A DNA stretch of 64,000 nucleotides, taken from positions 844-64,843 of the forward strand of contig JAGGWN010000117.1 in the NCBI GenBank assembly GCA_021157415.1. Direction: 5' to 3'. Shown here in pieces: positions 2,838 through 56,868 of this stretch; positions within the stretch are counted from its first letter, which is position 1; each line of letters begins with the position of its first letter. Position numbers and translations under genes: made by a program. Below the pieces are notes generated by a model. That model did not search any database. It was given only the letters and a program-made list of their open reading frames with translations, and was not told the DNA's origin. Source of the stretch: Bacteroidales bacterium. Its GTDB lineage: Bacteria; Bacteroidota; Bacteroidia; Bacteroidales; VadinHA17.

Positions 2838-2845
2838 TACATTTG
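2838..2845 (+). promoter_or_regulatory. Candidate Bacteroidetes -7 promoter box (TACATTTG)
   Basis: Exact match to TAnnTTTG, 52 nt upstream of the ATG at 2897. No clear -33 TTTG was seen. Confidence 0.3.
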
Positions 2846-2896
2846 CCTGTTGATAAGAATATATTGTGCTTATCAGGACAATGTTTTTGGACATTT

Positions 2897-5725: not shown

Positions 5726-5728
5726 ACA

Positions 5729-20848: not shown

Positions 20849-21439
20849 ATGAATGTGCCATTTGATTTTTTTTCGGTTGAGAAAAAAGATACGATTCCCG
20901 GAAAGGGGAAGGTATTGATCTCAGAACCTTTCTTGAGTGATGAATATTTTAAAAGATCGATCGTTCTGTTGGCGGAATATGGCAAAGAGGGGGCCCTGGG
21001 TTTTGTGTTGAATAAACCTGTAAATATGACAGTCAGAAAGCTCGTAAAGGATTTTCCCGAGACAGACATTCCTGTTTTTTTGGGCGGGCCCGTATCCACG
21101 AATACACTGCACTACATTCATACACTGGGAGAGTTTCTTCCGGGGAGTAAATGTATTTTTAGCGACATATACTGGGGCGGGGATTTTGAAGCCCTGAAGC
21201 AACTGGTAAAGCAGAGGGTAGCTACCCGGAAAAATATGAGGTTTTTTATCGGTTATTCGGGTTGGGATGCCGGCCAGCTCGAAAAAGAGTTGTCTGAGAA
21301 TGCCTGGGTGATTACCAGGCTTGGGGTGAAACAGATTATGATGGGAAACGATCAGCAAATATGGAAGAAAGTCTTGCGCGACCTTGGAAAGAAATATAAA
21401 TTGTGGGCGGATTTTCCGGAAAACCCGGGGTTAAACTAA
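20849..21439 (+). CDS. YqgE/AlgH family (UPF0301) protein
   Basis: GKVLISEPFLSDEYFKRSIVLLAEYGKEGALGFVLNKP...GGPV...GYSGWDAGQLEKEL is the canonical UPF0301 pattern. Confidence 0.85.
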   Translation: MNVPFDFFSVEKKDTIPGKGKVLISEPFLSDEYFKRSIVLLAEYGKEGALGFVLNKPVNMTVRKLVKDFPETDIPVFLGGPVSTNTLHYIHTLGEFLPGSKCIFSDIYWGGDFEALKQLVKQRVATRKNMRFFIGYSGWDAGQLEKELSENAWVITRLGVKQIMMGNDQQIWKKVLRDLGKKYKLWADFPENPGLN

Positions 21440-22045
21440 TCCCATTTCTGAGAGAAATAACCGGATCAGGGCAGGATTCATCAACACAGGATATAAGAAA
21501 CCAAAAAGTGCTCCGGCAAAATGAGCCTCATGATTGATGTTCTGATCACTTCTTTTGGCCATATACTGAGAGTATAGCAGATAAAGAATTCCGAAAACAA
21601 AGGCAGGAATGGGAATGAAATAAAAATAAATCAGGCTTTTGGGCTGGAAGAAGATACTGGTGAAGACAACGGCGGAAACAGCTCCCGAAGCTCCGACCGA
21701 ATTATAAGAAACATTGTTTCTATGCCTGTACAGGGTGGGGAGGGCGGAAAAAAGAATCCCTCCGGCATATAAAAAAAGAAAATTGAGAGAAGGATGTCGG
21801 ATATAATCATGTACGGCCAGTTCTTTTAAGTATCTTTCATTGAAGATGCCGAAGGAAAACAGGACAAACATGTTCACCCCCAAGTGAACCCAGTCGGCAT
21901 GAATGAATCCATGTGTTACGATACGCCAGTATTCTCTGTTTCTGAAAAAAAAATAAGGATTCAGAGTCAACTTGTAAAAGAAATCGGGTTTGTTGAATGC
22001 ATATACCGAAACAATCGTAGTGAGCACAATGATGGCAATGGTCAT
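21431..22045 (-). CDS. Rhomboid family intramembrane serine protease
   Basis: Six TM helices, the WRIVTHGFIH motif, catalytic GASGAVSAV and a downstream HEAHFAGALFG. Confidence 0.85.
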   Translation of the reverse strand: MTIAIIVLTTIVSVYAFNKPDFFYKLTLNPYFFFRNREYWRIVTHGFIHADWVHLGVNMFVLFSFGIFNERYLKELAVHDYIRHPSLNFLFLYAGGILFSALPTLYRHRNNVSYNSVGASGAVSAVVFTSIFFQPKSLIYFYFIPIPAFVFGILYLLYSQYMAKRSDQNINHEAHFAGALFGFLYPVLMNPALIRLFLSEMGLV

Positions 22046-24001: not shown

Positions 24002-24475
24002 TTGAAAACGAATCTTAATCTTCCGAAGTTTGACATTCCTGTGAGGACACAGGAAGGAAAGCTTTTTGTGTTTGATCCTGTAAGAAAAAAGTATGTGAGG
24101 CTTACACCTGAAGAATGGGTGAGGCAGAATTTTCTGTTATTCCTGAACGAGTTTAAGAAGTATCCGATATCCCTGATGCAGGTAGAAAAGGAATTTGTTT
24201 GGAATAACCTTTCCATGCGGAGTGATATCTTACTGTTTTCCAGTGATGGTAAACCCAGGATGATTGTGGAATGCAAAGCTCCGGAAGTGGCTGTGACGGA
24301 TAAGGTCTTTGAGCAGATTGCCAGGTATAACCTACGTTATCAGGTCCCATACCTGGTAGTGACCAACGGGCTGAGCCATTATTGCTGCAAGATGAATTAC
24401 AACGTGGGAACATACCTGTTTTTGGAGGATATCCCCGATTATAAAACCATTTCCGAAACAGGTTTTATCAGTTGA
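24002..24475 (+). CDS. Stand-alone type I restriction enzyme HsdR N-terminal domain (PD-(D/E)xK-like) protein
   Basis: 157 aa. The pattern RKKYVRLTPEEWVRQNFLLFL...DILLFSSDGKPRMIVECKAP is typical of the small HSDR_N family proteins common in Bacteroidota. Confidence 0.7.
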   Translation: MKTNLNLPKFDIPVRTQEGKLFVFDPVRKKYVRLTPEEWVRQNFLLFLNEFKKYPISLMQVEKEFVWNNLSMRSDILLFSSDGKPRMIVECKAPEVAVTDKVFEQIARYNLRYQVPYLVVTNGLSHYCCKMNYNVGTYLFLEDIPDYKTISETGFIS

Positions 24476-25014
24476 AAAATCAATTCATCTTCCCATTGGT
24501 CCGCTTTTCTCAACCAGTCTTTCTTACGACCGGTTTCAGTAAATCCTTTCGATTGGAATAAACGAATACTTTGAAGGTTTCCGGCCGGAATATTGCAATA
24601 AACCTGGTGCAACAAAAGTACGGAAAAACAATAGTCTATAATAATTTCCAGAGACTGGCCGGCATATCCCTTTTTTCTTTCTTCTTTTTCTTTGATCAGA
24701 ACACCTATACCAATCCTCAGATTCTGGGGGTCAAAATCGAAAAGATCTATGGTCCCGATGGTTTTAACGACCGGCTCGGAGGGAACCGGTTTCCGGTCAA
24801 TCATAAAGCGGATTTGCCCCGATTGGAATATATCCCGATGGGAATTTTCGATATACTGTTTCAATACAAAACGGGAGAATGGAGTCAGTGTGTTACTTAC
24901 TGTCCATATTTCAGGATCATTTTCCCATTTGTAGAGCAGCTCAAGATCTTCCGGTTCTAAAGCACGGAGAAGGATTTGATCGTTTTCCAGATGAAAAGTC
25001 TTTTCGGGTGTCAT
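24439..25014 (-). CDS. GNAT family N-acetyltransferase (RimJ/RimL-like)
   Basis: LRALEPEDLELLYKWENDPEIW at the N-terminus and an acetyl-CoA-binding region KGYAGQSLEIIIDYCF. Its ATG overlaps the stop of the upstream paralogue A as ATGA. Confidence 0.8.
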   Translation of the reverse strand: MTPEKTFHLENDQILLRALEPEDLELLYKWENDPEIWTVSNTLTPFSRFVLKQYIENSHRDIFQSGQIRFMIDRKPVPSEPVVKTIGTIDLFDFDPQNLRIGIGVLIKEKEERKKGYAGQSLEIIIDYCFSVLLLHQVYCNIPAGNLQSIRLFQSKGFTETGRKKDWLRKADQWEDELIFQLIKPVSEMVL

Positions 25015-26963
25015 CCTTCGGGTTTATCTTCGGAGTCACTATAGACTTTCTTTACGAATACATCCGCGTATCCTTTTTTTAATATCTTTTGCCTGGCTTT
25101 TTGTGCTTCTTTCAACGTTTTATATTGACCGACCGTGTACCGGTAGAAAGCATCCTTTCCATGCAGGACCACGACCCCTTTAAGATTCCTGAAATAGGAA
25201 ATATCTACCGGATTCAGCAGTGCCATTACCTGAACCGTGTAATATAAGACCTTCCTTCCTTGTTTATCAATATACTCAGGGTTCTTTACCATGACGTTGG
25301 TTACAATATTAAAGGTGTCCTGCGCAGTGGTTTCAGGGATAGGTGGTGTCTTTTTCTTAGGGATCCAGGAGGTGTCTTTCTCCAGATAGAGGTCATGAGT
25401 AATTTTCAGGGAAGGAGCATCTTTTTTAATGACAAGCGTATCCTGAAAAGGGAGAATGCCTTCTCCGTCACAGTCGATCCGGTAGGTTCCGTGTGGCACA
25501 TGGAAATGATACATACCGCTTTTATAATCGGGTACTCCGATATCTGCAGTATCCATTGAGATGGTGTCAATGATCCGGATCCTGACGTTGGGGTTTAGGA
25601 TGGGGTCGATGGTGTCATTGATATGAACGATCCCCATCACATCAAAAAGAGGGCTGGTTTCAGCTGTTCCCAGAAAGTCCAGACGAAAAATATTCATTTC
25701 CTTGTAACCGTCCAGCAGGGAAATATACCCGGATTTCCCATTTCTGTATGGTTGGAAAAACACGTCTTCATCGGTGGTACTCACCGGATAACCAATGTTA
25801 TCCGGTTTTTTCCAATGGTTACCTTTGCGTTTCGACACAAAAATATCATATCCTCCCATGTTAAAATGACCTTCAGATGTAAAAAATAACAAGGAGTCGT
25901 TCATGGATATGAAAGGACTGTTCTCATTGTACTTGGTATTGACAATAGGGCCCAGGTTTTTTGCCGGTCCCCAGTCGCCTCCCTTTTCACGATGAGTCAT
26001 ATAGATGTCCAATTCACCGATGCCTCCTTCCCGGTTGCTTGTAAAATACAAGGTTGACCCGTCTTTGCTTATAGAAGCATGGGATTCATAATATTTGGTA
26101 TTGATATTTTTATTCAGTTTCTTGATCCTGGACCATTGATTTCCGTCAAAAGTGGATACATAAATATTTCCTTCGAAGTTGTCCGTTTTATAAAGGTAGA
26201 GTTCGGTGCCATCGTAATTCAGGCACGAGGTGGAACAATCTTTATCAGAGCCTATTTCTGTTGTTATGTCTACCGGAATCATCCAGTGTCCGTGGATTTT
26301 TTTGCTAAAATACACCACCAGATCTTCTCCGAAATGTGCGGTGAAAGCCAGGGTATTCCCATCGCCGGAGATCACAGGATTCAGGTTGATTGAGGAGATG
26401 TTGACGGTGTCGCCCAGGTTGGTTCTTTTGATCTTCAGCGGTGTGGCCATCAGTTTTAAAGCGTTCTTGCAGGCAAGAATTTGCTGATCCACGAAGTCTT
26501 CATTAATCATTTTATTTTTGGCAGACAATTGTTTCTTGAAATATTTATATTTTTCTATGGCCTTATCCAGTTGATTATTTATACGGTATGCATTGCCCAG
26601 CTGAAAAAACACATCCAGCGGAGCCTTGGTTTCAGAAAACTGATCTTCTTGGGCATCATAGCTGGCATTTTGAGCAGCCTTTTCCAGATAGGAGATGGCC
26701 TTGTCTTTTTCATATGGAGTATTCAGATAACAGACCCCTATTTTATAGGCAATATTTGCATTGTCGGGGAGGCTTTCATACAGGATGAGATAAAGCGGGG
26801 TAGCCAGTTCATATTCTTCATAAAGGAAATGAGACTCTGCCTGCACAAAAAAATCTTTTAGTTCAGACTTGTTCTGTGCATGAAGAGTCCCTGAAGTATT
26901 GAATATGAAAATAATTCCTGTGAACAAGATTACTTTTAAATAACATGTGTGTTTCATAATCAT
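25011..26963 (-). CDS. Envelope paralogue A: signal peptide + TPR + PD40/TolB-like beta-propeller + Ig/CarboxypepD_reg-like domain + C-terminal SPOR domain
   Basis: It shares the N-terminal motifs of the array (YKIGVCYLNTPYEKDKAISYLEKA, ETKAPLDVFFQLGNAYRINNQLDKAIEKY) and the PD40 repeats (SKDGSTLYFTSNREGGIGELDIY). The C-terminus YYTVQVMAL...FYRYTVGQYKTLKEAQKARQKILKKGYADVFVKKV fits the SPOR fold pattern. Confidence 0.8.
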   Translation of the reverse strand: MIMKHTCYLKVILFTGIIFIFNTSGTLHAQNKSELKDFFVQAESHFLYEEYELATPLYLILYESLPDNANIAYKIGVCYLNTPYEKDKAISYLEKAAQNASYDAQEDQFSETKAPLDVFFQLGNAYRINNQLDKAIEKYKYFKKQLSAKNKMINEDFVDQQILACKNALKLMATPLKIKRTNLGDTVNISSINLNPVISGDGNTLAFTAHFGEDLVVYFSKKIHGHWMIPVDITTEIGSDKDCSTSCLNYDGTELYLYKTDNFEGNIYVSTFDGNQWSRIKKLNKNINTKYYESHASISKDGSTLYFTSNREGGIGELDIYMTHREKGGDWGPAKNLGPIVNTKYNENSPFISMNDSLLFFTSEGHFNMGGYDIFVSKRKGNHWKKPDNIGYPVSTTDEDVFFQPYRNGKSGYISLLDGYKEMNIFRLDFLGTAETSPLFDVMGIVHINDTIDPILNPNVRIRIIDTISMDTADIGVPDYKSGMYHFHVPHGTYRIDCDGEGILPFQDTLVIKKDAPSLKITHDLYLEKDTSWIPKKKTPPIPETTAQDTFNIVTNVMVKNPEYIDKQGRKVLYYTVQVMALLNPVDISYFRNLKGVVVLHGKDAFYRYTVGQYKTLKEAQKARQKILKKGYADVFVKKVYSDSEDKPEG

Positions 26964-27008
26964 TAAGCTTTAACCGGTTGATAAACACATAATGTTCCCT
27001 GCCTCATT

Positions 27009-28499
27009 TTACCTGGATTCATCCCTGGGTTTAAACTCGTACAAGAAATTTCCGGAATAGGAATAATATCTGAAAGTTTTGGTTTTAGGATCATAGATCA
27101 CCCTGATCACCACATCTTCTGTTCCCTTATCCTTAATTAGGATTTCAAACCCTTTGTTCAAGTCAACATGCAGTCCGTGCATATCTATGTTGCCTTCGAA
27201 TACCCTGATTTGATTTTTTTTAGACGGTAGGATTTCTATTCTGTAAATATCTTTTTTGCCATATCCTTCAGGGGTGATCCTGGAAAGATACCCGGCCAGA
27301 CCGTTCCGTACCGGGAAAAAGTAATCGTTATCGCGGGTTGTATTTATCGGATATCCGATATTGGTAGGGATATCCCAGCCATTGCTTTTCTTTTCTGAGT
27401 AAAAAATATCATATCCCCCCATATTGTAATGTCCTTCCGAGACAAAATAAAGCCTTTTCTGATCATCGGTAAGATATGGAGCATCTTCATTGAAAGGTGT
27501 ATTTATCGTCTTTTGCATATTTTCAGGAGGCCCCCATTCTCCTGATGCAGAAAGGCGGGAACGGTAAATGTCAAGTTTTCCATATCCACCCCGACGGTTG
27601 CTGGAAAAGAACAGTGTTTTATTATCAGGCGAAAGACTGGCATGGGCCTCAGCCCTTCCTGAGTTGACGACATCACTCAGCCTGGTCATTTGGGTCCACA
27701 TGCCCTCTTTCCATTTGCTGATATATATATCCCGGTCATTCCCCTTCCCTTTGATCAGGTACAGGGTCTTTTTGTCGGATGAAATATCAGTGGGATAAGC
27801 ATCTCCGTCAGATACTACCTGTGGGGTGATGTTGATTGGGGCCGTCCATTTCCCCCCTTCACGATGTGACATGAATATGGCATCGTAGAATTTTAATTCA
27901 GTCATGTAAAATATCACACTCTCATCCCTCGACAAAACAGGATAATAGTTATTGGCTCCTGTATTGATCGGCTGACCCAGGTTATATTCTTCAATCTGTA
28001 CCGGTATGTCCTGGATGATCTTGGCCTTTTCACTGGCCTTGATCTCATTATCAACAATATTGAGGTTGTATCTGTCAATAAAATCCGGCAGCGACTTGAA
28101 TTTCTGATAAGCCTCTAGCGCTTTGTCCAGTTCATTGTTCATGCGGTATGCATTTCCAAGATAAAACAAAGCATATTCGGGAGCTTTGGTTTCTTTTGGA
28201 GATCTTTTTTTATATTTTGGGTTGATGTCCTGCACGGCTTTCTCGAGGTAAGGGATGGCTTGCACCTCCTTGCCCGGGATGTGAATATAACAATATCCGA
28301 TTTTATAATACAGATTGGCATTTTCATATTTTGTGCCAATGAGTTTTAAATAGTCGTACAAAGCTTCCTGATAATCTTCTGCAAAAAAGAAATAATCACC
28401 GTCTTTATAAAGCGTTTCCGGATCGGTTTTCTGTTGGGCATAGGTGATGGAAAACAAACCGGTAAAAATTATGATAAGTAAACCTGACAGAAATTTCAT
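27009..28499 (-). CDS. Envelope paralogue B: signal peptide + TPR + PD40 beta-propeller, with no recognisable anchoring domain
   Basis: Same conserved N-terminal and PD40 motifs (SPDNKTLFFSSNRRGGYGKLDIY). It ends after a short beta-rich segment. The ATG at 28499 gives MKFLSGLLIIIFTGLFSITYAQ. The ORF track extends to a TTG at 28523. Confidence 0.8.
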   Translation of the reverse strand: MKFLSGLLIIIFTGLFSITYAQQKTDPETLYKDGDYFFFAEDYQEALYDYLKLIGTKYENANLYYKIGYCYIHIPGKEVQAIPYLEKAVQDINPKYKKRSPKETKAPEYALFYLGNAYRMNNELDKALEAYQKFKSLPDFIDRYNLNIVDNEIKASEKAKIIQDIPVQIEEYNLGQPINTGANNYYPVLSRDESVIFYMTELKFYDAIFMSHREGGKWTAPINITPQVVSDGDAYPTDISSDKKTLYLIKGKGNDRDIYISKWKEGMWTQMTRLSDVVNSGRAEAHASLSPDNKTLFFSSNRRGGYGKLDIYRSRLSASGEWGPPENMQKTINTPFNEDAPYLTDDQKRLYFVSEGHYNMGGYDIFYSEKKSNGWDIPTNIGYPINTTRDNDYFFPVRNGLAGYLSRITPEGYGKKDIYRIEILPSKKNQIRVFEGNIDMHGLHVDLNKGFEILIKDKGTEDVVIRVIYDPKTKTFRYYSYSGNFLYEFKPRDESR

Positions 28500-28520
28500 G
28501 GATGGTTTATTATGAGTAGT

Positions 28521-28528
28521 CAAATTTA
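28521..28528 (-). promoter_or_regulatory. Candidate -7 promoter box (TAAATTTG on the minus strand) for paralogues B-A and the GNAT gene
   Basis: Exact TAnnTTTG match 22 nt upstream of the ATG at 28499, inside the 116-bp C-B gap. Confidence 0.4.
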
Positions 28529-28615
28529 AAAAATTAATATAAAAATACTAATAATATCCGATAAAATATATTTCTTGAGGAAAAATAGAACGACAGGCCG
28601 CGGCTTCAGTAACCA

Positions 28616-30607
28616 CTATTTATTAAAGAGAAGTTCAGGAGGAATGTTTTGTTTAACCCGGATTTGATCTGCCCCGTTTCCTTTTATGCCAAACTCTACC
28701 CTTCGGTTGTAATGTCTGCCTCGCGGATTGTCAGTACCGTCCAGGTTCCTGTTTATGGCTACCGGCTTACTTTCCCCGTAAGCTGTAGCAGTCAGCCGTG
28801 ACGAAGTGATGCCTTTCGAAACAAGATAATTCTTCACGGCTTGACTTCTTTTTAAGGACAGTTTTCGGTTGTATGAACAAGGACCAATGGCATCTGTATG
28901 CCCTTCTACAGAAACCCGTACACCCGGGAAAACTTTGAGAATGTCAGCCAGCTTATCTAACTTTAACCGGGCTGCCGTGGTAAGTGTAAATTTGTCAAAA
29001 TCAAAGTATACGGGAGAAACAACATACATCTCTTTTTTTTCTGCAGTGGCCGGAGCGGCAAAAGTAAGGGGTAACTCTATTCTTTTGGTATGGTCTTCCT
29101 TTTGTAGAGCGATCACCTGCGCAAAGGGGGATAACTTTTTCCCGTTTACAGTGATCCGGTAAGTTCCGGCCGGTAGTTTCGTCTCAAATGTTCCTTCTCT
29201 GGTAATATGAATACTGCCGGTAGCCGGTACTTTCACCGCCGTATTTTCAATTTTTATGTTAATATCCTCCGGTAGATTATAGCCGGGAGGAAGGATGAGT
29301 TTTCCGGAAAGAACAACAGGCCGGGGATGTTCGGGAGTATATCTCTCGACCGTAGCAATATAGGCTCTTTTTTCTTGTTCGTTGAACCAGTGTGTGATAT
29401 ATCCTTTGAACCCACTGTCCAAAGGAGCGAAGTAAAGATCGTCGTCGGTCGAGTTGGGTGGATAACCGAGGTTTACAGGATCATTCCATATTTCGTTTTT
29501 TTGTTTACTGGAAAAAATATCGTAGCCTCCCATGCCGGGATGTCCGTCAGAACTGAAAAACAATTGTTGTCCGTCGGAGGTTAGCACCGGCGACTGTTCA
29601 TTATAGGGCGTATTTACAGGACCCGGCAGTGGCAGGATGTTATCCCATTTCCCCTCAGGCGTGAGCGAAGCTGTAAAAATATCCAGTCCTCCCGGGCCAC
29701 CACTGCGATCACTCACGAAATAAAGCTTATGCCCATCAGGAGACAGCGATGCAAAAACCTCATCGTGCAGAGTGTTGACTTTTCCTTCCAGGGGTATGGC
29801 TTTCTCCCATACATTGTTTTTGTACTTGCTGATGAATATGTCCCGGTGTTCTTTCCTGGGAACGGTCAGAAGAAGAAGGGTCCCCTCATAATTCAGTGAA
29901 GCTACCTGGTAGGTGCCATCAGACTCAATTTCCATGGTAATATTTTCCGGTGTGGTCCAGGCTCCGTTTTGAAATTCCGTAAAATAAATGGCTTGGTAAT
30001 ATTTAGTTTCACTCATAAATACCATCCTTTTTTTGTCGCCCGACAAGGCCGGATGATACACGATCCGGCCTACCTTTAACAACTCGGGATAGACCATCTC
30101 TACATCTCCGGGACGGCTCATCATTTTTTTTGCCAGTTCACAACTACCGATCCATCTGTTTACGATATCCTTGCTTTGTCGCTTACGTAGCATCTTTTTA
30201 TAACGGGAATAGGCAGATAATGCTTTGTCCAATTCGTTATGGATCTGATAAGCTCTTCCAAGAAACAACAGGGCCTCCAAAGGGGCTCTGGTTTCCTGAT
30301 ACAGATCTTTTTTATATTTGCGGGATACATCTTGTGATGCTTTCTCCAGATAGGAAATGGCTCGGGTCTTTTGACCGGGGATATGTAAATAACAAGTCCC
30401 TGTCAGGTACTGAAGATTGCTGTTAGCCGGGTATTTATCCGCCAATTTGAGATACAAAGGCAGCGCAGCTTCGTATTTATGATACAGTACCAGCAGATTG
30501 GCATTGTAAAAGGATTTCTCATCTTTTACGGCCTCCTGGGCATGGAGCAGGTTTCCTGTGAATAATAAACTGAAAAAGACCTGGAAAATGATCCCCTTTC
30601 TTACCAT
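28616..30607 (-). CDS. Envelope paralogue C: signal peptide + TPR + PD40 beta-propeller + CarboxypepD_reg-like domain + OmpA C-terminal-like peptidoglycan-binding domain
   Basis: Conserved array motifs plus the C-terminal OmpA_C pattern VYFDFDKFTL...VEGHTDAIGPCSYNRKLSLKRSQAVKNYLVSKGI...YGESKP...NRRVEF. The ATG is at 30607, and the ORF track uses a TTG at 30616. Confidence 0.85.
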   Translation of the reverse strand: MVRKGIIFQVFFSLLFTGNLLHAQEAVKDEKSFYNANLLVLYHKYEAALPLYLKLADKYPANSNLQYLTGTCYLHIPGQKTRAISYLEKASQDVSRKYKKDLYQETRAPLEALLFLGRAYQIHNELDKALSAYSRYKKMLRKRQSKDIVNRWIGSCELAKKMMSRPGDVEMVYPELLKVGRIVYHPALSGDKKRMVFMSETKYYQAIYFTEFQNGAWTTPENITMEIESDGTYQVASLNYEGTLLLLTVPRKEHRDIFISKYKNNVWEKAIPLEGKVNTLHDEVFASLSPDGHKLYFVSDRSGGPGGLDIFTASLTPEGKWDNILPLPGPVNTPYNEQSPVLTSDGQQLFFSSDGHPGMGGYDIFSSKQKNEIWNDPVNLGYPPNSTDDDLYFAPLDSGFKGYITHWFNEQEKRAYIATVERYTPEHPRPVVLSGKLILPPGYNLPEDINIKIENTAVKVPATGSIHITREGTFETKLPAGTYRITVNGKKLSPFAQVIALQKEDHTKRIELPLTFAAPATAEKKEMYVVSPVYFDFDKFTLTTAARLKLDKLADILKVFPGVRVSVEGHTDAIGPCSYNRKLSLKRSQAVKNYLVSKGITSSRLTATAYGESKPVAINRNLDGTDNPRGRHYNRRVEFGIKGNGADQIRVKQNIPPELLFNK

Positions 30608-30653
30608 AACATGCAATTAAAATCCGGATTCTTTGTGGGTAAAAGAATCTCGT

Positions 30654-32648
30654 TTATTTTATCTTCAACTGATCCGGCACATGGATGGGTGTCGGTTGTA
30701 TGGTATTTACCGGGGTGCCGGCAACGGTTATTTCAACCCTCCTGTTAAGAGCTCGGCCTTCCGGACAATCTCTGCCGTCGGGATAACGGTTAATCGCAAT
30801 GAAATTAGTTTCTCCGGCGCCTTTCACATGATATCTTGAAGGAGCGATCCCTGCCTTTTTCAGAACATTGGCTACTGCACGTGCTCTTCTCAGAGATAAT
30901 CTGCGGTTGTACCCTGCAGACCCTTTGGAATCAGCATAACCGGTAATATTAATCACAAGTTCCGGATGATTAGTCAATATACTGACCAGCTGGTTGACTT
31001 TCCCTTTCTCCGCATCGGAAAGCCGGGCTTTATCAAAGTTGAAGAATATGACCGGCAGGTATTCAACCTTTGCTACTGGTGCCGGGTTAAGAGTTATATC
31101 TTCGCGGACAGTAGATATTGAATAACTCGCCGGGATCCTGATATCTTTTGTATTTTGTTGATATTCAGGGGACTGTAATATCAGTTCATAATCGCCTTTT
31201 GGAAGACGGGCTGTTATATTATATTTTCCTGAAGGTTTGATAGATGTTTCTTTTACTACTTTCCCCGTTTTTTTATCCCTGAGGATAATATGAACAGGCT
31301 CGTTATAAGTTTCAGGTTTGTTTTTCAGTTGAACGGTTCCTGCGAGAGATACAGGCCGGGGGTTTAAGTCAGAGAAAAATTCAACACGGAATATATCTTT
31401 GTTTCCAATGCTTTTCTCGGGATCATACATAGAGAAATACCCATAGACCTTTGCGACCATGGGCACAAAGAAAAGATCATCATCCGTTGAGTTTATCGGA
31501 TAACCGATATTTCTGGGTTGGGACCAGGTTCCGTTCTCCTGGGCTTCGGAGTAGAAGATGTCAAAACCACCCATGCTGTTGTGCCCCTGAGAGCTGAAAT
31601 AAAGCGTTTTCCCATCTTTGGATAAGAACGGGGTTTCTTCATTGAATTCGGTGTTGATGGTAGGTCCCAAATTGCTGGCAGGGCCCCATTCTCCAGTCGT
31701 TTCATCAAGATAGGAGATGTATATGTCCAACCCTCCATGACTGCCTTTACGGTTACTTGTGAAATAGAGTGTTTTACCGTCAGGAGAAAGAGTAGCACTC
31801 GATTCCCAGAATTTGGTGTTTACATTTTTCCCCAGTTTCACAGCCTTGGTCCATTGATCGTTTTTCAAATGGCTCACCCAGATATCACTGTTGAATCGGT
31901 CGTTTCTGGACATGAAAAAAGTCTTCCCGTCAAAAGAAATACCTGCAGGATAGAGATCTCCGTCGGATTGAATTTCCGGGGTAATATTTCTCGGGGTACT
32001 CCAGCCGGTACTTTTTTTCTTCGCATAAAAAACAGCATCATAAAACTTGAGGCTGGTAACATATATCAATGTTGATTCGTCACCTGAAACGACAGGGTCA
32101 AAATTAGCACGGGAATTATTAATATTTTTTCCTGCATTTTCCAGATCGACAGCCACAGGATGCGCCATGAAGTTGCGGGCTCTCTCTACAGCAGAAATTT
32201 CCTGTTTTACAAAATCATAATCCAAGGTATCTGTCGGTTCCAGGTAGGTCAAATATTTTTCAAAGTATGTTTTTGCATCGTCGAAACGGTATTGGAGCAA
32301 GTAGGCGGTACCCAGAAAAAAAAGAGCATCCCTCGGGGCCTTGGTTTCCTTTACATTACCTTCTTTGTATTTATCAGTGGTTTTCCTGGCGGCTTTTTCC
32401 AGGTAAGGAATTGCCTTCTCTTTCTGGCCGGGAATATTCAGGTAACAGATGCCCATACGGTAGTTAATATTGGCATTTTCCGGATCAACACGGTAAACCT
32501 TTTTATATCCTTCCAGGGCATCCGGATAGGATTCCAGTGCCAGGAAATATTCTCCGTCCAGGAAAGCCCTCTTAACATCCTTGGAATATTGGGAATATGC
32601 GGACAGCAATGATAACAAAAAAACTGCCAATATGATAACTCTTTTCAT
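30654..32648 (-). CDS. Envelope paralogue D: signal peptide + TPR + PD40 beta-propeller + CarboxypepD_reg-like domain + OmpA C-terminal-like domain
   Basis: Conserved array motifs plus IFFNFDKARL...ITGYADSKGSAGYNRRLSLRRARAVANVLKKAGI...GAGETNF...NRRVEI. Confidence 0.85.
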   Translation of the reverse strand: MKRVIILAVFLLSLLSAYSQYSKDVKRAFLDGEYFLALESYPDALEGYKKVYRVDPENANINYRMGICYLNIPGQKEKAIPYLEKAARKTTDKYKEGNVKETKAPRDALFFLGTAYLLQYRFDDAKTYFEKYLTYLEPTDTLDYDFVKQEISAVERARNFMAHPVAVDLENAGKNINNSRANFDPVVSGDESTLIYVTSLKFYDAVFYAKKKSTGWSTPRNITPEIQSDGDLYPAGISFDGKTFFMSRNDRFNSDIWVSHLKNDQWTKAVKLGKNVNTKFWESSATLSPDGKTLYFTSNRKGSHGGLDIYISYLDETTGEWGPASNLGPTINTEFNEETPFLSKDGKTLYFSSQGHNSMGGFDIFYSEAQENGTWSQPRNIGYPINSTDDDLFFVPMVAKVYGYFSMYDPEKSIGNKDIFRVEFFSDLNPRPVSLAGTVQLKNKPETYNEPVHIILRDKKTGKVVKETSIKPSGKYNITARLPKGDYELILQSPEYQQNTKDIRIPASYSISTVREDITLNPAPVAKVEYLPVIFFNFDKARLSDAEKGKVNQLVSILTNHPELVINITGYADSKGSAGYNRRLSLRRARAVANVLKKAGIAPSRYHVKGAGETNFIAINRYPDGRDCPEGRALNRRVEITVAGTPVNTIQPTPIHVPDQLKIK

Positions 32649-32673
32649 TGGATATGAAATTTTTGCATTTTAA

Positions 32674-32681
32674 CAAATTTA
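32674..32681 (-). promoter_or_regulatory. Candidate -7 promoter box (TAAATTTG on the minus strand) for paralogues D-C
   Basis: Exact TAnnTTTG match 26 nt upstream of the ATG at 32648, inside the 104-bp E-D gap. It is the same octamer as at 28521-28528. Confidence 0.4.
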
Positions 32682-32752
32682 GAAATAAAATTGTAAAAAA
32701 GGTATAAATGATTAAAAATCTTTTGAAAAATCCAATATGAGCCGTCCGTTTA

Positions 32753-35641
32753 CTATTCCTTATTCCCTTTTTTCACGATCAGGTAACCCGTAACAATCCC
32801 TGCCAGAACCAGTGGTACGATCCAGTAGAGACGGCTGGCTTTTCCTCCCGTAAGAATATCTCCCTGGGTCATTAGTTCTCTTACCTTGTCTTCCTCAATA
32901 TTGGAAGAAATAATGATTCGGGTGAGCGCTTTCAGCAAATCATTTTCCGTATAATTATTTGTCTTTGCCTGATTCATTAAATAATCCAAAAGGTTTTTGA
33001 TGTTTTTGATCTTGTTGGATTTCAGATCTATATTCGTTAAAAGATCATGCAAGTGACCGGTGGATTTTTTAATGAGTTTTCCAAGGAAATTATTCACGTC
33101 AGGATCCCCGTTGGAGGCAATCCGGGCAAACAGATAGATCAGGTCTTTGGTGGAATAACCCAGCAGATCGGATTTATCAATCAGGAAATTCGTCAGTTCC
33201 CAGGCGGAATAAATCTCATTTTTCTCCGGATTAGCCTGGTTCACAGCTTGTTTAATTTTGCCACTGGAAAGATCTATCAGATGTTGATACATTGTTCTAA
33301 GACCTTTGTCTTTTTCTGTTGCCATGGAGACGAACATCTGATGCAATTCCGTGCTGTCGATCAGACCTGAGTCGGTTGCTTCCAGAAGTTGTTTCATGAG
33401 CTGGTGGGAGGTGTGTATGTTCGATTTGTCCAGGTCCAGGCGATCGAGATATTCCTTTAATGACCCGGAAGCATTTGTAACCAGACTGTTATAAACATCT
33501 TCAAGTTCTTCCGGGTTACGTGTTGCCGCCAATAAAAGCAACTGATCAATGTCCTCGGGGGTATAACTTGAAACGGAGGCCTTCCTCTTCAGATAATCGA
33601 TGATCTCAAACTGGTTGCTGAAATTCATGGCTTCAGGGTCTATCTTCTGAATTTCTGATAGCAGACTGCCTGTGGCATAATGCTTCAGGATACCCAGGAA
33701 ATCATTCATTTCCTGAAGCTGGGCAGGGGTCACATGTACTTTGGGCAACTCATGTTTGGGTTGTTCTTCTGTTATGGTCACTTCCGGAGCCACCGGAACA
33801 GGTATATTCAGATAAATTTCTTTTTGTGTGGTATTCCCGTAACGGTCGGTCAGGTTTAGCACTACGGTACTCCTTCCGGCAGGTGGCAGGATGGGGAAAG
33901 TAAGTGAATCGTTCATTACGTAATAATGTGTTGAATCGACCAAAACGGAATCCTGATACAAACGCAGGGTCAACCAGGATCCTTTCTCCGTGCTGAGAAT
34001 AAGATCCAGTGTATCTCCCGCCTGAACACTAAAAGAAGTATTCAGGATATCCAGATTGGCCGTCTGATCTTCCAACTGGATTAAAACAGGGGGCATGTAA
34101 ATCTCTTCTTTGTTAAGACTCATCGGCAGGGAGAGCGGCGACACCTGGGGCTTTATCCCTTCTCCGCCGATCGCCAGGTTGTAATCTCCTGCCACGGTTT
34201 CAAGCTGATAATGCAGGGATGTATCAGGATTGACACTTTTAAGTGTGTCCATCATGTTTTTACTCAGTAAATTGACAAATATTTTGTTATGGTCCTGTAT
34301 AAAGGAGATGTTCTTTGTGTCTATGGTTCCTTGTATCAGGAACCTGCGAGGATGTTCTGCCGAGAAGATTTCGACCTTAAAAATATCCATGTTTCCTAAT
34401 CCCCGGGTTGAAAATTTTGACATGTAGGCATAATACCCTTTGCCAACGGGTTGATAGAACAGGTCATCATCGGTAGTATTGACAGGGTAGCCCATATTCA
34501 TGGGTACCGACCATTCTGCACTATCAAGAAGATTTGAGTAAAAGATATCGTATCCCCCCATGTTGTAATGACCATAGGAACTGAAGAACAATGTTTTTCC
34601 ATCGGCAGTGATAAAGGGAGTTTCCTCGTTGTATTTTGTGTTGATGATGGGCCCCAGATTTTCTGCTGGGCCCCAGTTACCCAGACTGTCCAGATGGGAA
34701 ACATAGATATCCAGTCCGCCGTATCCGCCTTTCCGGTTGCTCGTAAAATATAGAACCTTTCCGTCTTTAGTAACACTGGCATGGGATTCCCAGTACTTGG
34801 TGTTGATGTGATCGTTCAGCCTGATTACCTGTGACCACCGTCCGTCTTTATATTGGCTGATGTATATATTCCCGTCATACTGGTCGTTTTTGTAAAGATA
34901 CAGCGTTTTGCCGTCAAAGGAAAGAGAAGAAGAATAAAAATCCTGGTCAACACCGAGCTCTGGAGTCAAATTGATCGGGGGTGTCCAGGTGCCGTTTTCC
35001 TGATGCGTGTAAAAAACAGCATCATAGAAGGGGAGTTTCCGGGTGAATACCAGTGTTTTCATATCCCCTGAAATAACTGGCCTGTAATCCGAAAAACGAC
35101 TGTTGATCGGCTTGCCGACATTCTTTTCAGAAAAGTACAATGGTGTGCTTTCTAGTTTCTTGGCAACATTGCATGCTTTGATCTGGTCGTTTACCAGTTG
35201 TACGTCATAAATTTTCGGATTCAGATGATCTTTGAAATATTGATACATCTCCAGCGCCTTATCCAGCTTATTATTGACCCGGTATGCATTGCCAAGGTAA
35301 AAATATGCATCCATCGGAGCATGCGTTTCATGTATTGAATTCTCTCTGTATTTTGGGGTAATATCGGTGATAGCTTTCTCGAGATAGGCAATGGACTTGT
35401 CTTTTTGGCCCGGGATATTCAGGTAGCAGATCCCTATGCGATAATTCAGATTGTTGTTGTCCGGAAATAATTTATGTAACTCTAAATAGTATGGCAGGGC
35501 ATCACTGTATTCTTCAAAAAGGAAAAAAGAATTTCCTTCTACAAATTTTTTTTTGATCTCCGCTCTGCTGAGATTTTGCGAATAACCTGAAAAAACAAAC
35601 AAAAAATAAAATAGTAATACCAATACTTGCTTACTTCGCAT
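32753..35641 (-). CDS. Envelope paralogue E: signal peptide + TPR + PD40 beta-propeller + beta-rich middle region + four ~68-aa helical repeats + C-terminal TM anchor
   Basis: The N-terminal ~430 aa carry the array motifs (YRIGICYLNIPGQKDKSIAYLEKA, TKDGKVLYFTSNRKGGYGGLDIY). The C-terminal third has four repeats beginning GSL/GSL/GKI/GHL. The protein ends LYWIVPLVLAGIVTGYLIVKKGNKE. Confidence 0.8.
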   Translation of the reverse strand: MRSKQVLVLLFYFLFVFSGYSQNLSRAEIKKKFVEGNSFFLFEEYSDALPYYLELHKLFPDNNNLNYRIGICYLNIPGQKDKSIAYLEKAITDITPKYRENSIHETHAPMDAYFYLGNAYRVNNKLDKALEMYQYFKDHLNPKIYDVQLVNDQIKACNVAKKLESTPLYFSEKNVGKPINSRFSDYRPVISGDMKTLVFTRKLPFYDAVFYTHQENGTWTPPINLTPELGVDQDFYSSSLSFDGKTLYLYKNDQYDGNIYISQYKDGRWSQVIRLNDHINTKYWESHASVTKDGKVLYFTSNRKGGYGGLDIYVSHLDSLGNWGPAENLGPIINTKYNEETPFITADGKTLFFSSYGHYNMGGYDIFYSNLLDSAEWSVPMNMGYPVNTTDDDLFYQPVGKGYYAYMSKFSTRGLGNMDIFKVEIFSAEHPRRFLIQGTIDTKNISFIQDHNKIFVNLLSKNMMDTLKSVNPDTSLHYQLETVAGDYNLAIGGEGIKPQVSPLSLPMSLNKEEIYMPPVLIQLEDQTANLDILNTSFSVQAGDTLDLILSTEKGSWLTLRLYQDSVLVDSTHYYVMNDSLTFPILPPAGRSTVVLNLTDRYGNTTQKEIYLNIPVPVAPEVTITEEQPKHELPKVHVTPAQLQEMNDFLGILKHYATGSLLSEIQKIDPEAMNFSNQFEIIDYLKRKASVSSYTPEDIDQLLLLAATRNPEELEDVYNSLVTNASGSLKEYLDRLDLDKSNIHTSHQLMKQLLEATDSGLIDSTELHQMFVSMATEKDKGLRTMYQHLIDLSSGKIKQAVNQANPEKNEIYSAWELTNFLIDKSDLLGYSTKDLIYLFARIASNGDPDVNNFLGKLIKKSTGHLHDLLTNIDLKSNKIKNIKNLLDYLMNQAKTNNYTENDLLKALTRIIISSNIEEDKVRELMTQGDILTGGKASRLYWIVPLVLAGIVTGYLIVKKGNKE

Positions 35642-35719: not shown

Positions 35720-35748
35720 AAAAAAAAGGGAGTTGTTGATGAACTCCC
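35720..35748 (-). terminator. Rho-independent terminator downstream of the COG1579 gene
   Basis: On the minus strand, GGGAGTT-(7-nt loop)-AACTCCC is followed directly by eight T residues (stem arms at 35742-35748 and 35728-35734, T-run at 35720-35727). It separates the nif3/zinc-ribbon unit from the paralogue array. Confidence 0.75.
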
Positions 35749-35775
35749 CCTTATTTGAAATGATTGACAGATGTT

Positions 35776-39630: not shown

Positions 39631-39843
39631 CCTTTTTCAAAAAAACAGTTCGCGGGGAACGGTTTGTAATATTTGGGCAATATGTTTAACGATGGATGAG
39701 TCAGGTCAGAAAAGGTGGATTTTCGTTAAAATCAAGGCGGAGAAAATTTTGCAACCGCAATTAACTTGTTGTTAATAAGGATTGAAGGATTCTTGACAAC
39801 GAAGAGTTTGCAACAAAGACCCTTTTTAGACTGGACGCATGTA

Positions 39844-56066: not shown

Positions 56067-56340
56067 CATAAAATTTTTCATGAAAGCGTACATGGGCCGT
56101 ATGAAAAAATTTATAACCTGGTTCTCCCACTGGAGCTCTGTCCGACCGCCTGTCTAAAGCAGGGTGCGGGGTAATCCGTTGCTATATTCAAAGGATTATC
56201 AGAGGGAATGTGAAATATTTGGTTGTTGAAGCGTGATAAAATGCAACCTTATTTTTTTATTTATTGAGCTTCGAGCCCGCCATGCAAAGTGAAAGCAGTG
56301 ACCTTGCTTTTTGTTCGCTTGTGTGTAATAACATTTCTTG

Positions 56341-56348
56341 TAATTTTG
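56341..56348 (+). promoter_or_regulatory. Candidate -7 promoter box (TAATTTTG) for the exonuclease gene
   Basis: Exact TAnnTTTG match 6 nt upstream of the in-frame GTG at 56354. If real, the mRNA would be nearly leaderless. Confidence 0.25.
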
Positions 56349-56353
56349 TTTCC

Positions 56354-56848: not shown

Positions 56849-56868
56849 ATCTTCATTCCCTCCGGGTA

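What the first reader, a model, noticed from the sequence alone, without database searches (positions are those of the whole stretch)
25011..35641. Five tandem paralogues of a TPR + PD40 beta-propeller envelope protein, each with a different C-terminal module
Five consecutive minus-strand genes (E 962 aa, D 664 aa, C 663 aa, B 496 aa, A 650 aa) all start with a signal peptide and share a strongly conserved ~430-aa N-terminal part. That part contains the TPR-like motifs Y+IG.CYL.IPG.K.KAI.YLEKA and ET.AP.....LG.AYR.NN.LDKA.E.Y, followed by repeated PD40-type blades (S.DG..L.F.S.R.GG.G..DIY). The genes then diverge completely at the C-terminus. A ends in a SPOR-like domain. B has no recognisable anchor. 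C and D end in OmpA_C-like peptidoglycan-binding domains. E ends in four helical repeats and a TM helix. The result is one sensing or scaffold module wired to different envelope attachment points: septal peptidoglycan, bulk peptidoglycan, a membrane, or none. A co-located five-member series of this kind looks like a coordinated system rather than random duplication. I know of no functional description of such an array. Single genes of this type are normally annotated only as OmpA family or PD40 domain proteins.
Basis: partly seen in the sequence, partly recalled or inferred. Interest (0 to 1): 0.7.

Follow-up and report, generated by a model that had tools for sequence, protein, structure and literature searches.

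The report
Conserved five-gene PorE-like envelope protein array
Five neighbouring genes in an uncultured Bacteroidales bacterium encode ancient copies of one periplasmic module (the same module as the secretion/envelope protein PorE), each with a different tail predicted to attach it to the inner membrane, the cell wall, probably the division septum, or nothing; the set is conserved in many related genomes and may be a cell-envelope tethering system that nobody has studied.

Summary
Their tails differ:
- C and D end in OmpA_C domains with an intact peptidoglycan-binding triad.
- A ends in a probable SPOR domain.
- B has only a short stub.
- E has a second Ig-like domain, four ~68-aa alpha-helical repeats with no Pfam or PDB match, and a C-terminal TM helix.

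The shared module is that of PorE (T9SS) and CHU_0125, which have been characterised, so the building block is not new. All five score far below those families' cut-offs, and none is a lipoprotein.

The array is not specific to this window. E-D-C-B-A recurs in six other genomes, in two of them with D only 48-56% identical. Three- and four-gene variants occupy the same locus in five more. All sit directly upstream of a GNAT gene. The five orthogroups are each monophyletic (bootstrap at least 97%), so the duplications are old and each copy has been kept.

The best reading is a passive, Tol-Pal-like envelope tether or scaffold, not a sensor. I found no paper describing the array. It is a new variant of a known kind, of moderate interest.

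The parts
32753..35641 (-). Gene E (962 aa). Signal peptide, TPR, PD40 propeller, CRD beta-sandwich, second Ig-like beta-sandwich, disordered linker, four alpha-helical repeats, C-terminal TM helix, basic tail. Predicted type I inner-membrane-anchored periplasmic protein.
   Evidence: AF2, pLDDT 82; TolB structures are the top Foldseek hits.
35150..35566 (-). E residues 26-164: TPR-like helical domain (eight helices).
   Evidence: secondary structure; TPR_2/TPR_6 hits.
34364..35137 (-). E residues 169-426: PD40 beta-propeller, TolB-like.
   Evidence: PD40, 5e-20; TolB 2w8b, 1crz, 2hqs at E about 1e-8, TM-score about 0.42 normalised to the target.
34097..34345 (-). E residues 433-515: CRD-type beta-sandwich. 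Shared with A, C and D; truncated in B.
   Evidence: alignment; CarboxypepD_reg hits in D and in E, C and D orthologues.
33803..34009 (-). E residues 545-613: second, Ig-like beta-sandwich, specific to the E type.
   Evidence: conserved in E-type relatives including P0001.
32864..33727 (-). E residues 639-926: four repeats of about 66-70 aa, each of four (the last of five) helices. No Pfam family and no PDB structural match.
   Evidence: pLDDT 87.6, pTM 0.78; best Foldseek E = 1.2.
32774..32830 (-). E residues 938-956: C-terminal transmembrane helix LYWIVPLVLAGIVTGYLIV, followed by KKGNKE.
   Evidence: Kyte-Doolittle 2.14; the only non-signal hydrophobic segment in the five proteins; a basic tail (consensus RRKKK) in the 41-sequence alignment of E-type proteins.
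30654..32648 (-). Gene D (664 aa). Signal peptide, TPR, propeller, CRD, OmpA_C. This is the full PorE/CHU_0125 architecture, but D is not a lipoprotein.
30771..31046 (-). D residues 535-626: OmpA_C peptidoglycan-binding domain with the triad D573/N581/R588.
   Evidence: 1.2e-19; PorE C-terminal domain 6TOP at 1e-11.
28616..30616 (-). Gene C (666 aa from TTG, or 663 aa from the ATG at 30607). Same four-domain architecture as D. It is the most divergent paralogue.
28739..29008 (-). C residues 537-626: OmpA_C domain with the triad D575/N583/R590.
   Evidence: 5.8e-22.
27009..28523 (-). Gene B (504 aa from TTG, or 496 aa from the ATG at 28499). Signal peptide, TPR, propeller, then a conserved beta-rich stub of about 65 aa. 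No anchor, so predicted to be free in the periplasm.
25011..26963 (-). Gene A (650 aa). Signal peptide, TPR, propeller, CRD, linker, probable SPOR domain.
25044..25253 (-). A residues about 571-640: probable SPOR domain (YYTVQVMAL ... FYRYTVG ... EA..AR..ILKKGYADVFVKKVY).
   Evidence: Pfam SPOR at 22-24 bits against a cut-off of 21, found in 6 of 7 orthologues. This is the most conserved stretch of the A tail. Not confirmed by the PDB profile search or hhalign.
24439..25014 (-). GNAT (Acetyltransf_3) gene. It overlaps the stop codon of A by 4 bp and lies directly downstream of the array in every locus examined. Whether it belongs to the system is unknown.
35724..35752 (-). Terminator-like hairpin (11-bp stem followed by a T run) between the upstream Zn-ribbon gene and E. 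It marks the likely 5' boundary of the array's transcription unit.

Best explanation
The region holds a conserved, probably co-expressed array of five anciently diverged paralogues of the PorE/CHU_0125 superfamily.

**Architecture.** Each protein is exported by a signal-peptidase-I signal peptide. Each carries the same periplasmic module: CpoB-like TPR helices, a TolB-like PD40 propeller and a CRD beta-sandwich. The C-terminal tail sets where that module sits:
- E is tethered to the inner membrane by a C-terminal TM helix, through a stalk made of an Ig-like domain and four novel alpha-helical repeats.
- C and D bind bulk peptidoglycan through OmpA_C domains with an intact DAP-binding triad.
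- A probably binds denuded, septal glycan through a SPOR domain.
- B is free in the periplasm.

**Proposed function.** The most likely function is structural. It would be a passive Tol-Pal-like tether or scaffold that links the inner membrane, the cell wall, the division site and, through the propeller or TPR face, as yet unknown outer-membrane partners. The anchorless B could act as a soluble competitor or adaptor, as TolB does for Pal.

**What is shown:** the domain architecture, the targeting tails, the conservation of the set, and the age of the duplication.

**What is inferred:** co-transcription, physical interaction among the members, any outer-membrane partner, and the envelope-integrity or division role.
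For: **Architecture**
- Pfam and NCBIfam hits.
- AF2 model of E at pLDDT 82.
- TolB structures are the top Foldseek hits for the propeller.
- The OmpA_C triad D-x7-N-x6-R, matching PorE Asp576/Asn584/Arg591 (PMC7192894), is present in all 14 C and D orthologues.
- Only E has a second hydrophobic helix, followed by a basic tail.
- SPOR is found in 6 of 7 A orthologues.

**A unit under selection**
- The same order E-D-C-B-A occurs in the window and six other genomes: L002-L007, with D 91, 76, 75, 62, 56 and 48% identical.
- The five orthogroups are each monophyletic in 194-200 of 200 bootstraps. Identity is 52-71% within groups and 34-46% between them.
- Three- and four-gene variants at the same locus always keep one TM-anchored member, at least one OmpA member and one anchorless member. 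SPOR is a separate gene, is fused behind OmpA, or is absent.

**Expression**
- All genes are on one strand. Gaps are 104, 37, 92 and 45 nt. No terminator-like site on the coding strand falls in any of the four gaps between the genes. A hairpin lies just upstream of E.

**Function by analogy**
- Deleting CHU_0125 breaks outer-membrane integrity and raises OMV release sixfold (PMC5891637).
- PorE needs its PG-binding OmpA_C domain (PMC12773672).
- No tol-pal loci are identifiable in Bacteroidetes, and PorE has been proposed as a compact CpoB-TolB-Pal tether that may traffic to the septum (PMC12204202).
Against: - There is no experimental or expression data for any member.
- All relatives I found are from MAGs, so no phenotype is available.
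- No member has a lipid anchor or a beta-barrel, so the outer-membrane link is entirely hypothetical.
- Interaction among the paralogues was not tested.
- The SPOR call is marginal.
- No TolQR/ExbBD-type motor genes and no OM partner genes lie in the 64-kb window. E's TM helix has no obvious motor-coupling residues, so a force-transducing Tol-like mechanism is unsupported.
- The flanking genes are housekeeping and say nothing about function.
Confidence: 0.55

Rival explanations
1. T9SS accessory proteins. The five would be PorE-like anchors that dock PorP/SprF-like outer-membrane proteins and their type-B CTD cargo to different envelope layers, as proposed for the porE-like genes of Flavobacterium johnsoniae.
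For: - The NCBIfam PorE model is one of the two best hits for all five proteins.
- The PorE propeller is implicated in PorP binding (PMC12773672).
- Six porP-like genes sit next to porE-like genes in F. johnsoniae (PMC9143113).
- The non-lipoprotein PorE homologues of F. johnsoniae resemble C and D (PMC7192894).
Against: - Scores are 114-239 bits against a cut-off of 600.
- None is a lipoprotein.
- No PorP/SprF-like, CTD-cargo or other T9SS gene lies in the 64-kb window or in the eleven flanked loci.
- A, B and E lack the OmpA_C domain that is essential for PorE function (PMC12773672).
- The locus sits in conserved housekeeping synteny.
Confidence: 0.2
2. Independent paralogues without a joint function. 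The tandem order would be a frozen relic of old duplications, with each gene doing a separate periplasmic job.
For: - D-type and E-type proteins are each very large families (more than 6000 hits at E <= 1e-20).
- Copy number at the locus varies from three to five.
- The -7-like box TAAATTTG lies 25 nt upstream of D and could be an internal promoter.
Against: - Order, strand and tail types are kept in genomes whose D orthologues are only 48-62% identical.
- The variants keep a constant logic of TM-anchored, OmpA-bearing and anchorless members.
- The intergenic gaps are short.
Confidence: 0.15
3. An envelope sensor or signalling array. The TPR-propeller module would bind a ligand and the tails would relay the signal.
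For: TPR and propeller domains are generic ligand- and protein-binding modules.
Against: - E's cytoplasmic tail is only six residues.
- No kinase, anti-sigma or other output domain occurs in any member.
- No regulator is adjacent to the array. The nearest is a MerR gene about 2 kb upstream.
Confidence: 0.05

Closest known systems
PorE (PG1058/PGN_1296) of Porphyromonas gingivalis, a T9SS component
   Same: - C and D have the same four-domain order: TPR, beta-propeller, CRD, OmpA_C.
- C and D have the same PG-binding triad (PMC7192894).
- A, B and E share the first three domains.
   Different: - PorE is an OM lipoprotein. None of the five has a lipobox.
- Scores are 114-239 bits against the family cut-off of 600.
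- No T9SS or porP context.
- A, B and E replace OmpA_C with SPOR, nothing, or an Ig + alpha-repeat + TM tail.
CHU_0125 of Cytophaga hutchinsonii (NCBIfam: OmpA-like outer membrane integrity protein)
   Same: - Signal peptide, TPR, PD40 and OmpA_C, as in C and D.
- It is the best or second-best NCBIfam hit for all five.
- Its deletion phenotype (OM integrity, OMV release) is the model for the function proposed here (PMC5891637).
   Different: - Scores are 132-244 bits against a cut-off of 620.
- CHU_0125 was studied as a single gene. No tandem set with alternative tails was described.
Multi-copy PorE homologues of Flavobacterium johnsoniae (more than 20) and Tannerella forsythia (14)
   Same: - Many paralogues per genome.
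- The F. johnsoniae copies have signal peptides but are not lipoproteins, like C and D (PMC7192894).
   Different: - As described, those copies align over more than 95% of PorE's length and keep its PG-binding residues (PMC7192894). No copies with other tails are reported.
- Six of the F. johnsoniae porE-like genes sit next to porP-like genes (PMC9143113).
- Here five fixed orthogroups with different tails sit in one syntenic array without porP.
The Tol-Pal system (TolA, TolB, Pal, CpoB) of Proteobacteria
   Same: - The same domain vocabulary: a TolB-like propeller, a Pal-like OmpA_C domain and a CpoB-like TPR.
- An IM-anchored member with a helical periplasmic stalk, as in TolA.
- A free propeller protein, as in TolB.
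- A link to the division site, here through SPOR.
- PorE has already been read as a CpoB-TolB-Pal fusion (PMC12204202).
   Different: - The domains are fused and repeated in every member.
- E's TM helix is C-terminal, and its stalk is unrelated to TolA.
- No TolQR motor genes are nearby.
- There is no lipoprotein.
- TolB/Pal/YbgF NCBIfam scores are far below their cut-offs.
SPOR-domain division proteins (FtsN, DamX, DedD, RlpA)
   Same: A's tail matches Pfam SPOR, a domain that binds denuded septal glycan (the role of SPOR is from general knowledge).
   Different: - The match is marginal.
- In A the SPOR domain is attached to a large TPR-propeller-CRD module instead of a short membrane anchor.
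- In the L008 and L011 relatives it is fused behind an OmpA_C domain.

Membership tests
PorE family T9SS protein (NCBIfam NF052230) | Whole-protein score at or above the curated cut-off of 600 bits | tested here: not met
   D 239, C 221, E 141, B 128, A 114 bits.
PorE family T9SS protein | Four-domain architecture: TPR, beta-propeller, CRD, OmpA_C | tested here: inconclusive
   Met by C and D. Not met by A (SPOR tail), B (no tail) or E (Ig, alpha-repeats, TM).
PorE family T9SS protein | N-terminal lipobox; outer-membrane lipoprotein (PMC7192894) | tested here: not met
   The signal peptides end LHA-Q, TYA-Q, LHA-Q, AYS-Q and GYS-Q. No Cys is at the cleavage site (sequences).
PorE family T9SS protein | PG-binding residues Asp576, Asn584 and Arg591 in OmpA_C | tested here: met
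   D-x7-N-x6-R is present in C and D and in all 12 of their orthologues. A, B and E have no OmpA_C domain.
PorE family T9SS protein | Binds PorP and is required for T9SS cargo secretion | not testable with these tools
   No T9SS or porP-like gene was found in the window or in the flanked loci. The rest of the genome was not available.
CHU_0125 family OmpA-like outer membrane integrity protein (NCBIfam NF053607) | Whole-protein score at or above the curated cut-off of 620 bits | tested here: not met
   D 244, C 203, B 160, E 152, A 132 bits.
Tol-Pal system | TolB equivalog (TIGR02800, cut-off 343), including the TolB N-terminal domain | tested here: not met
   at most 30 bits. Only the propeller resembles TolB (E about 1e-8, TM-score about 0.42 normalised to the target).
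Tol-Pal system | Pal: an OM lipoprotein with OmpA_C | tested here: not met
   OmpA_C is present in C and D, but there is no lipobox. Pal models score 51-72 bits against cut-offs of 125 (TIGR02802) and 261 (NF008067).
Tol-Pal system | TolQ-TolR-TolA motor genes in the locus | tested here: not met
   No MotA/ExbB/TolQ, ExbD/TolR or TolA/TonB genes were found among the window's ORFs.
PD40 beta-propeller repeat (Pfam PF07676) | Score above the gathering threshold of 20.9 | tested here: met
   58-79 bits in all five proteins, with two matched stretches each.
OmpA family (Pfam PF00691) | Score above the gathering threshold of 27.2 | tested here: met
   C 78.3 and D 70.9 bits. Absent from A, B and E.
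SPOR domain (Pfam PF05036) | Score above the gathering threshold of 21, and a SPOR fold | tested here: inconclusive
   A scores 22.0 bits as the whole protein and 24.2 bits as the tail alone. The domain is found in 6 of 7 orthologues. The PDB profile search gave only CwlC SPOR at E = 0.27. No structure model of A was made.

The most novel reading that the evidence does not exclude
The array would be the functional counterpart of Tol-Pal in a clade of Bacteroidales, a phylum in which no tol-pal locus is recognisable. The shared TPR-propeller modules would hetero-oligomerise. E would reach up from the inner membrane on a new kind of alpha-repeat stalk, C and D would hold the wall, A would take the complex to the septum, and B would regulate exchange. 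Together they would link the envelope layers and coordinate outer-membrane constriction. The E-type tail would then be a new family of periplasm-spanning stalk.
Probability: 0.25. Interest if true: 0.75.

Novelty: new variant of a known kind. Interest (0 to 1): 0.5.

Why it matters
Bacteroidota lack a recognisable Tol-Pal system. How they hold the outer membrane to the wall, and how they constrict it at division, is still open. PorE was proposed in 2025 as a compact CpoB-TolB-Pal tether that might traffic to the septum (PMC12204202).

This array adds three things that proposal lacks:
- an inner-membrane-anchored relative;
- a relative with a probable septum-binding domain;
- an anchorless relative.

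All three are kept together with two wall-binding copies in a conserved locus. That gives a concrete set of genes to delete, localise and test for mutual binding.

The analysis also defines a large family with no functional annotation, the E type: at least 120 clusters (at 90% identity) matching E over most of its length, and 132 representative clusters (at 50% identity) matching its tail. The family carries a confidently predicted alpha-repeat module that has no Pfam family and no solved structural relative.

If the genes turn out to be independent, the finding reduces to routine domain shuffling within the PorE superfamily.

Tried and rejected
1. **Word-index search with E's C-terminal 402 aa.** It returned one protein only and missed the obvious orthologues. 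This was a limit of the candidate step, not a sign of rarity. The exhaustive search found 132 representative clusters.
2. **Split of E in L001.** A 99.6%-identical metagenome scaffold (L001) shows E as two genes. The cause is a run of N at a scaffold gap, so it is an artefact.
3. **Rhombosortase idea.** I asked whether E's tail (TGGK, TM helix, basic residues) is a GlyGly-CTERM-like sorting signal for the syntenic rhomboid protease. The rhomboid scores 39 bits against the rhombosortase cut-off of 84, and the GG is not conserved in distant E-type proteins. Not supported.
4. **Independent confirmation of SPOR.** The PDB profile search and hhalign against the FtsN SPOR domain were both uninformative.
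5. **Sigma-70 promoter scan.** It found 34 sites against 31.7 expected, so it is uninformative. This consensus is also not the one Bacteroidota promoters use (general knowledge). Only one TAnnTTTG box was found, upstream of D.
6. **Terminator scan.** The total was not above the shuffles (13 against 14.5). Only the hairpin upstream of E is well placed.
7. **First bootstrap run.** It timed out. I redid it with my own neighbour-joining code.
8. **Order of duplication.** The relationships among the five orthogroups are unresolved (all groupings at or below 14 of 200), so nothing can be said about the order.
10. **Provenance.** The exact A protein is not on record in the collection.

Full report
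**1. What is in the sequence**

ORF listing confirms five consecutive minus-strand genes at 25011-35641:

| Gene | Window coordinates | Length |
|---|---|---|
| E | 32753-35641 | 962 aa |
| D | 30654-32648 | 664 aa |
| C | 28616-30616 | 666 aa from TTG, 663 from the ATG at 30607 |
| B | 27009-28523 | 504 aa from TTG, 496 from the ATG at 28499 |
| A | 25011-26963 | 650 aa |

Pairwise BLASTP scores between paralogues are 283-450 bits, so the paralogy is not a chance effect.

All five start with a signal-peptidase-I type signal peptide that ends in Ala or Ser followed by Gln (LHA-Q, TYA-Q, LHA-Q, AYS-Q, GYS-Q). None has a lipobox cysteine.

**2. Domains**

- Pfam finds PD40 repeats in all five (58-79 bits) and weak TPR in all five.
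- OmpA is found in C (5.8e-22) and D (1.2e-19).
- SPOR is found in A, just above the gathering threshold: 22 bits for the whole protein and 24 for the tail alone, against a cut-off of 21.
- A sub-threshold CarboxypepD_reg match follows the propeller in D.
A CRD-type beta-sandwich follows the propeller in A, C, D and E and is cut down to a ~65-aa stub in B.
- The OmpA_C domains of C and D carry the D-x7-N-x6-R triad, which corresponds to PorE Asp576/Asn584/Arg591, the residues that contact the DAP of peptidoglycan (PMC7192894). The triad is present in all 14 C and D orthologues examined.
- A's tail (YYTVQVMAL ... FYRYTVG ... EA..AR..ILKKGYADVFVKKVY) is the most conserved stretch of the A-specific region. 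It matches Pfam SPOR in 6 of 7 orthologues. A PDB profile search and an hhalign test did not confirm it. I call SPOR probable, not proven.

**3. Gene E**

An AF2 model built on 41 sequences (mean pLDDT 82) gives this layout:

| Residues | Element |
|---|---|
| 1-22 | signal peptide |
| 26-164 | eight TPR-like helices |
| 169-426 | beta-propeller |
| 433-515 | CRD-type beta-sandwich |
| 545-613 | second, Ig-like beta-sandwich |
| 617-633 | disordered linker |
| 639-926 | 17 helices |
| 937-961 | terminal helix |

- Foldseek's top hits for the propeller are the TolB structures (E about 1e-8, TM-score about 0.42 normalised to the target).
- The strand pattern suggests about five blades, as reported for PorE (PMC7192894). 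I did not count blades on coordinates.
- The helical region is four repeats of 66-70 aa, 15-31% identical to each other. BLASTP of the first half against the second gives E = 5e-8.
- Modelled alone, the helical region is confident (pLDDT 87.6, pTM 0.78). It has no Pfam family and no PDB structural neighbour (best Foldseek E = 1.2).
- Residues 938-956 (LYWIVPLVLAGIVTGYLIV) are the only hydrophobic segment in any of the five proteins apart from the signal peptides. They are followed by KKGNKE.
- A cleaved signal peptide plus a C-terminal TM helix with a basic tail predicts a type I inner-membrane protein (positive-inside rule, general knowledge). Its whole TPR-propeller module would be in the periplasm, and only six residues would be in the cytoplasm.

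**4. Nearest named families**

NCBIfam's two best models for all five proteins are NF053607 (CHU_0125 family OmpA-like outer membrane integrity protein) and NF052230 (PorE family T9SS protein). The scores are 114-244 bits against cut-offs of 620 and 600. TolB, Pal and YbgF models hit only weakly. So the proteins belong to the PorE/CHU_0125 superfamily but are not equivalogs of either protein.

The literature provides this context:
- PorE is an OM lipoprotein with TPR, propeller, CRD and OmpA_C domains that binds peptidoglycan (PMC7192894).
- PorE's OmpA_C domain is essential, and its propeller probably contacts PorP (PMC12773672).
- Deleting CHU_0125 damages outer-membrane integrity and raises OMV release sixfold (PMC5891637).
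- Many PorE homologues exist in T. forsythia (14, lipoproteins) and F. johnsoniae (more than 20, not lipoproteins) (PMC7192894).
- In F. johnsoniae, six porP-like genes lie next to porE-like genes (PMC9143113).
- A 2025 paper notes that no tol-pal loci are identifiable in Bacteroidetes. It reads PorE as a CpoB-TolB-CP-Pal fusion that may tether the OM to peptidoglycan and traffic to the septum (PMC12204202).

**5. Conservation of the array**

A genome scan with C found three MAGs, from Bacteroidales and Rikenellaceae. All carry NIF3 - Zn-ribbon - E-D-C-B-A - GNAT - (HSDR_N on the opposite strand) - PNP - holA. Orthologues are 63-94% identical, while paralogues are only 34-47%.

Following progressively more distant D-like proteins gave these loci:

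| Locus | D identity to window | Array (aa lengths) |
|---|---|---|
| L005 | 62% | E 963, D 658, C 644, B 496, A 647 |
| L006 | 56% | E 948, D 665, C 663, B 492, A 658 |
| L007 | 48% | E 942, D 660, C 639, B 472, A 616 |
| L009 | 44% | E 961, D 663, C 612, B 491; no A |
| L010 | 50% | E 954, D 660, C 634, B 493; no A |
| L011 | 42% (the fusion protein) | long E 1363, OmpA 626, anchorless 485, OmpA+SPOR fusion 922 |
| L012 | not measured | long E 1363, OmpA 626, then 518 and 213 (faint SPOR) |
| L008 | 41% (the fusion protein) | anchorless 443, E-type 975, OmpA+SPOR-like fusion 746 |

- Every version lies immediately upstream of the same GNAT gene and the HSDR_N-PNP-holA block.
- The constant elements are one TM-anchored member, at least one OmpA member and one anchorless member.
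- A neighbour-joining tree of the shared 462 columns from 37 proteins recovers A, B, C, D and E as separate clades, with 194-200 of 200 bootstraps. The branching among the clades is unresolved.
- The duplications therefore predate the divergence of these genomes, and each copy has been kept with its own tail.

**6. Are the five each other's closest relatives?**

No.
- D has more than 6000 relatives at E <= 1e-20. Many are full-length at 40-62% identity.
- E has at least 120 clusters matching 63-100% of its length (94% or more for most) at 34-83% identity, with lengths of about 600-1570 aa.
- E's tail module has 132 representative clusters among 1.84 billion proteins. Among the full-length hits it nearly always starts at about residue 540-590 of a 750-2100-aa protein, and up to nine repeat stretches are matched.
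- The sources name them only 'OmpA family', 'tetratricopeptide repeat', 'PD40 domain-containing' or 'hypothetical' protein. All named members come from MAGs.

**7. Transcription**

- All five genes and the GNAT gene are on one strand.
- The gaps are 104, 37, 92 and 45 nt, and A overlaps the GNAT start by 4 bp.
- A terminator-like hairpin (35724-35752) separates the upstream Zn-ribbon gene from E.
- No terminator-like site on the coding strand lies in the gaps between the array genes.
- One box resembling the Bacteroidota -7 promoter element (TAAATTTG) lies 25 nt upstream of D.
- Co-transcription is plausible but has not been shown.

**8. Context**

The 64-kb window holds no T9SS, PorP/SprF, TolQR/ExbBD or TonB genes. 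The neighbours are housekeeping genes: NIF3, a CdsZ-like Zn-ribbon protein, MerR, an M23 peptidoglycan endopeptidase, AlaRS, PNP, holA and a rhomboid protease.

**9. Mechanism**

*Shown:* a common exported TPR-propeller-CRD module; four kinds of tail that predict four locations (inner membrane, bulk wall twice, probably septal wall, free); and long-term retention of the set.

*Inferred:* the set works together as a passive tether or scaffold that connects envelope layers. This is analogous to Tol-Pal and to what has been proposed for PorE and shown phenotypically for CHU_0125. B could play a TolB-like soluble role, and OM contact would come through partners that are not yet known.

A sensing role is unlikely, because no member has a cytoplasmic output. 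A T9SS-anchoring role remains possible. It lacks the expected gene context, the lipid anchor and, in three of the five members, the OmpA_C domain that PorE needs.

**10. Verdict**

The finding is a new variant of a known kind: a conserved, undescribed tandem set within the PorE/CHU_0125 superfamily that includes an unannotated inner-membrane-anchored subfamily with a novel alpha-repeat stalk. Interest is moderate at 0.5. It would rise if the members are shown to interact or to affect envelope integrity or division.

Noticed in passing
window 24439-25014 (-): A GNAT (Acetyltransf_3) gene overlaps the stop codon of A by 4 bp. It sits directly downstream of the array in all eleven flanked loci, whatever the array's composition. 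Its best NCBIfam hits (SpeG-like, PseH-like) are far below their cut-offs. Whether it acts with the array is unknown.
   Followed up: partly
window 21431-22045 (-), and E residues 926-962 (window 32756-32866): A short rhomboid protease is part of the conserved downstream synteny. Its only NCBIfam hit is rhombosortase (39 bits against a cut-off of 84). E ends in TGGK, a TM helix and a basic tail, which is loosely like a GlyGly-CTERM sorting signal. The GG is not conserved in distant E-type proteins, so the link is speculative.
   Followed up: partly
window 24002-24475 (+): A small HSDR_N_2 protein (N-terminal domain of a type I restriction R subunit, with no enzyme attached) is convergent with the GNAT gene, and their 3' ends overlap by 37 nt. 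It is conserved at this position in all eleven flanked loci.
   Followed up: no
window 35724-35752 (-): A strong terminator-like hairpin (11-bp stem, T run) lies downstream of the CdsZ-like Zn-ribbon gene, followed by a very AT-rich 80 nt before the start of E.
   Followed up: partly
L008:10001-12241, L011:10001-12769; proteins P0102, P0104, P0112: Some relatives carry OmpA_C and a SPOR-like tail in one protein (746-922 aa). So the separate SPOR-bearing gene A and the OmpA-bearing genes C and D of the window correspond to a fused form elsewhere. The direction of change (fission or fusion) was not resolved.
   Followed up: partly
proteins P0147, P0161, P0165, P0242 and others: E-type proteins range from about 940 to 2108 aa. 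The longest hit shows up to nine matched stretches of the E tail, which suggests that the helical stalk varies in repeat number between lineages.
   Followed up: no
window 38143-40815 (-): A MepM/ShyA-like M23 peptidoglycan endopeptidase and a PQQ/BamB-like beta-propeller protein lie 2.5-5 kb upstream of the array. The AlaRS - M23 - PQQ-like - MerR - NIF3 - Zn-ribbon order is also kept in L005 and L006.
   Followed up: no
L001:1587-1599 (window about 33523): A 99.6%-identical metagenome scaffold has a 13-base insertion (CAC plus ten N) at a scaffold gap inside E. This made the gene caller split E into products of 534 and 214 aa. It is an assembly artefact, not a biological difference.
   Followed up: yes
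window 2843-7279 (+): A SusC-like TonB-dependent receptor with an N-terminal CarboxypepD_reg domain is followed by a 516-aa protein with no Pfam hit at E <= 1e-5. The second may be a SusD-like partner.
   Followed up: no
window 48558-49400 (-), 56261-56881 (-), 60411-60917 (-): Three ORFs of 168-280 aa have no Pfam match at E <= 1e-5. They were not examined further.
   Followed up: no
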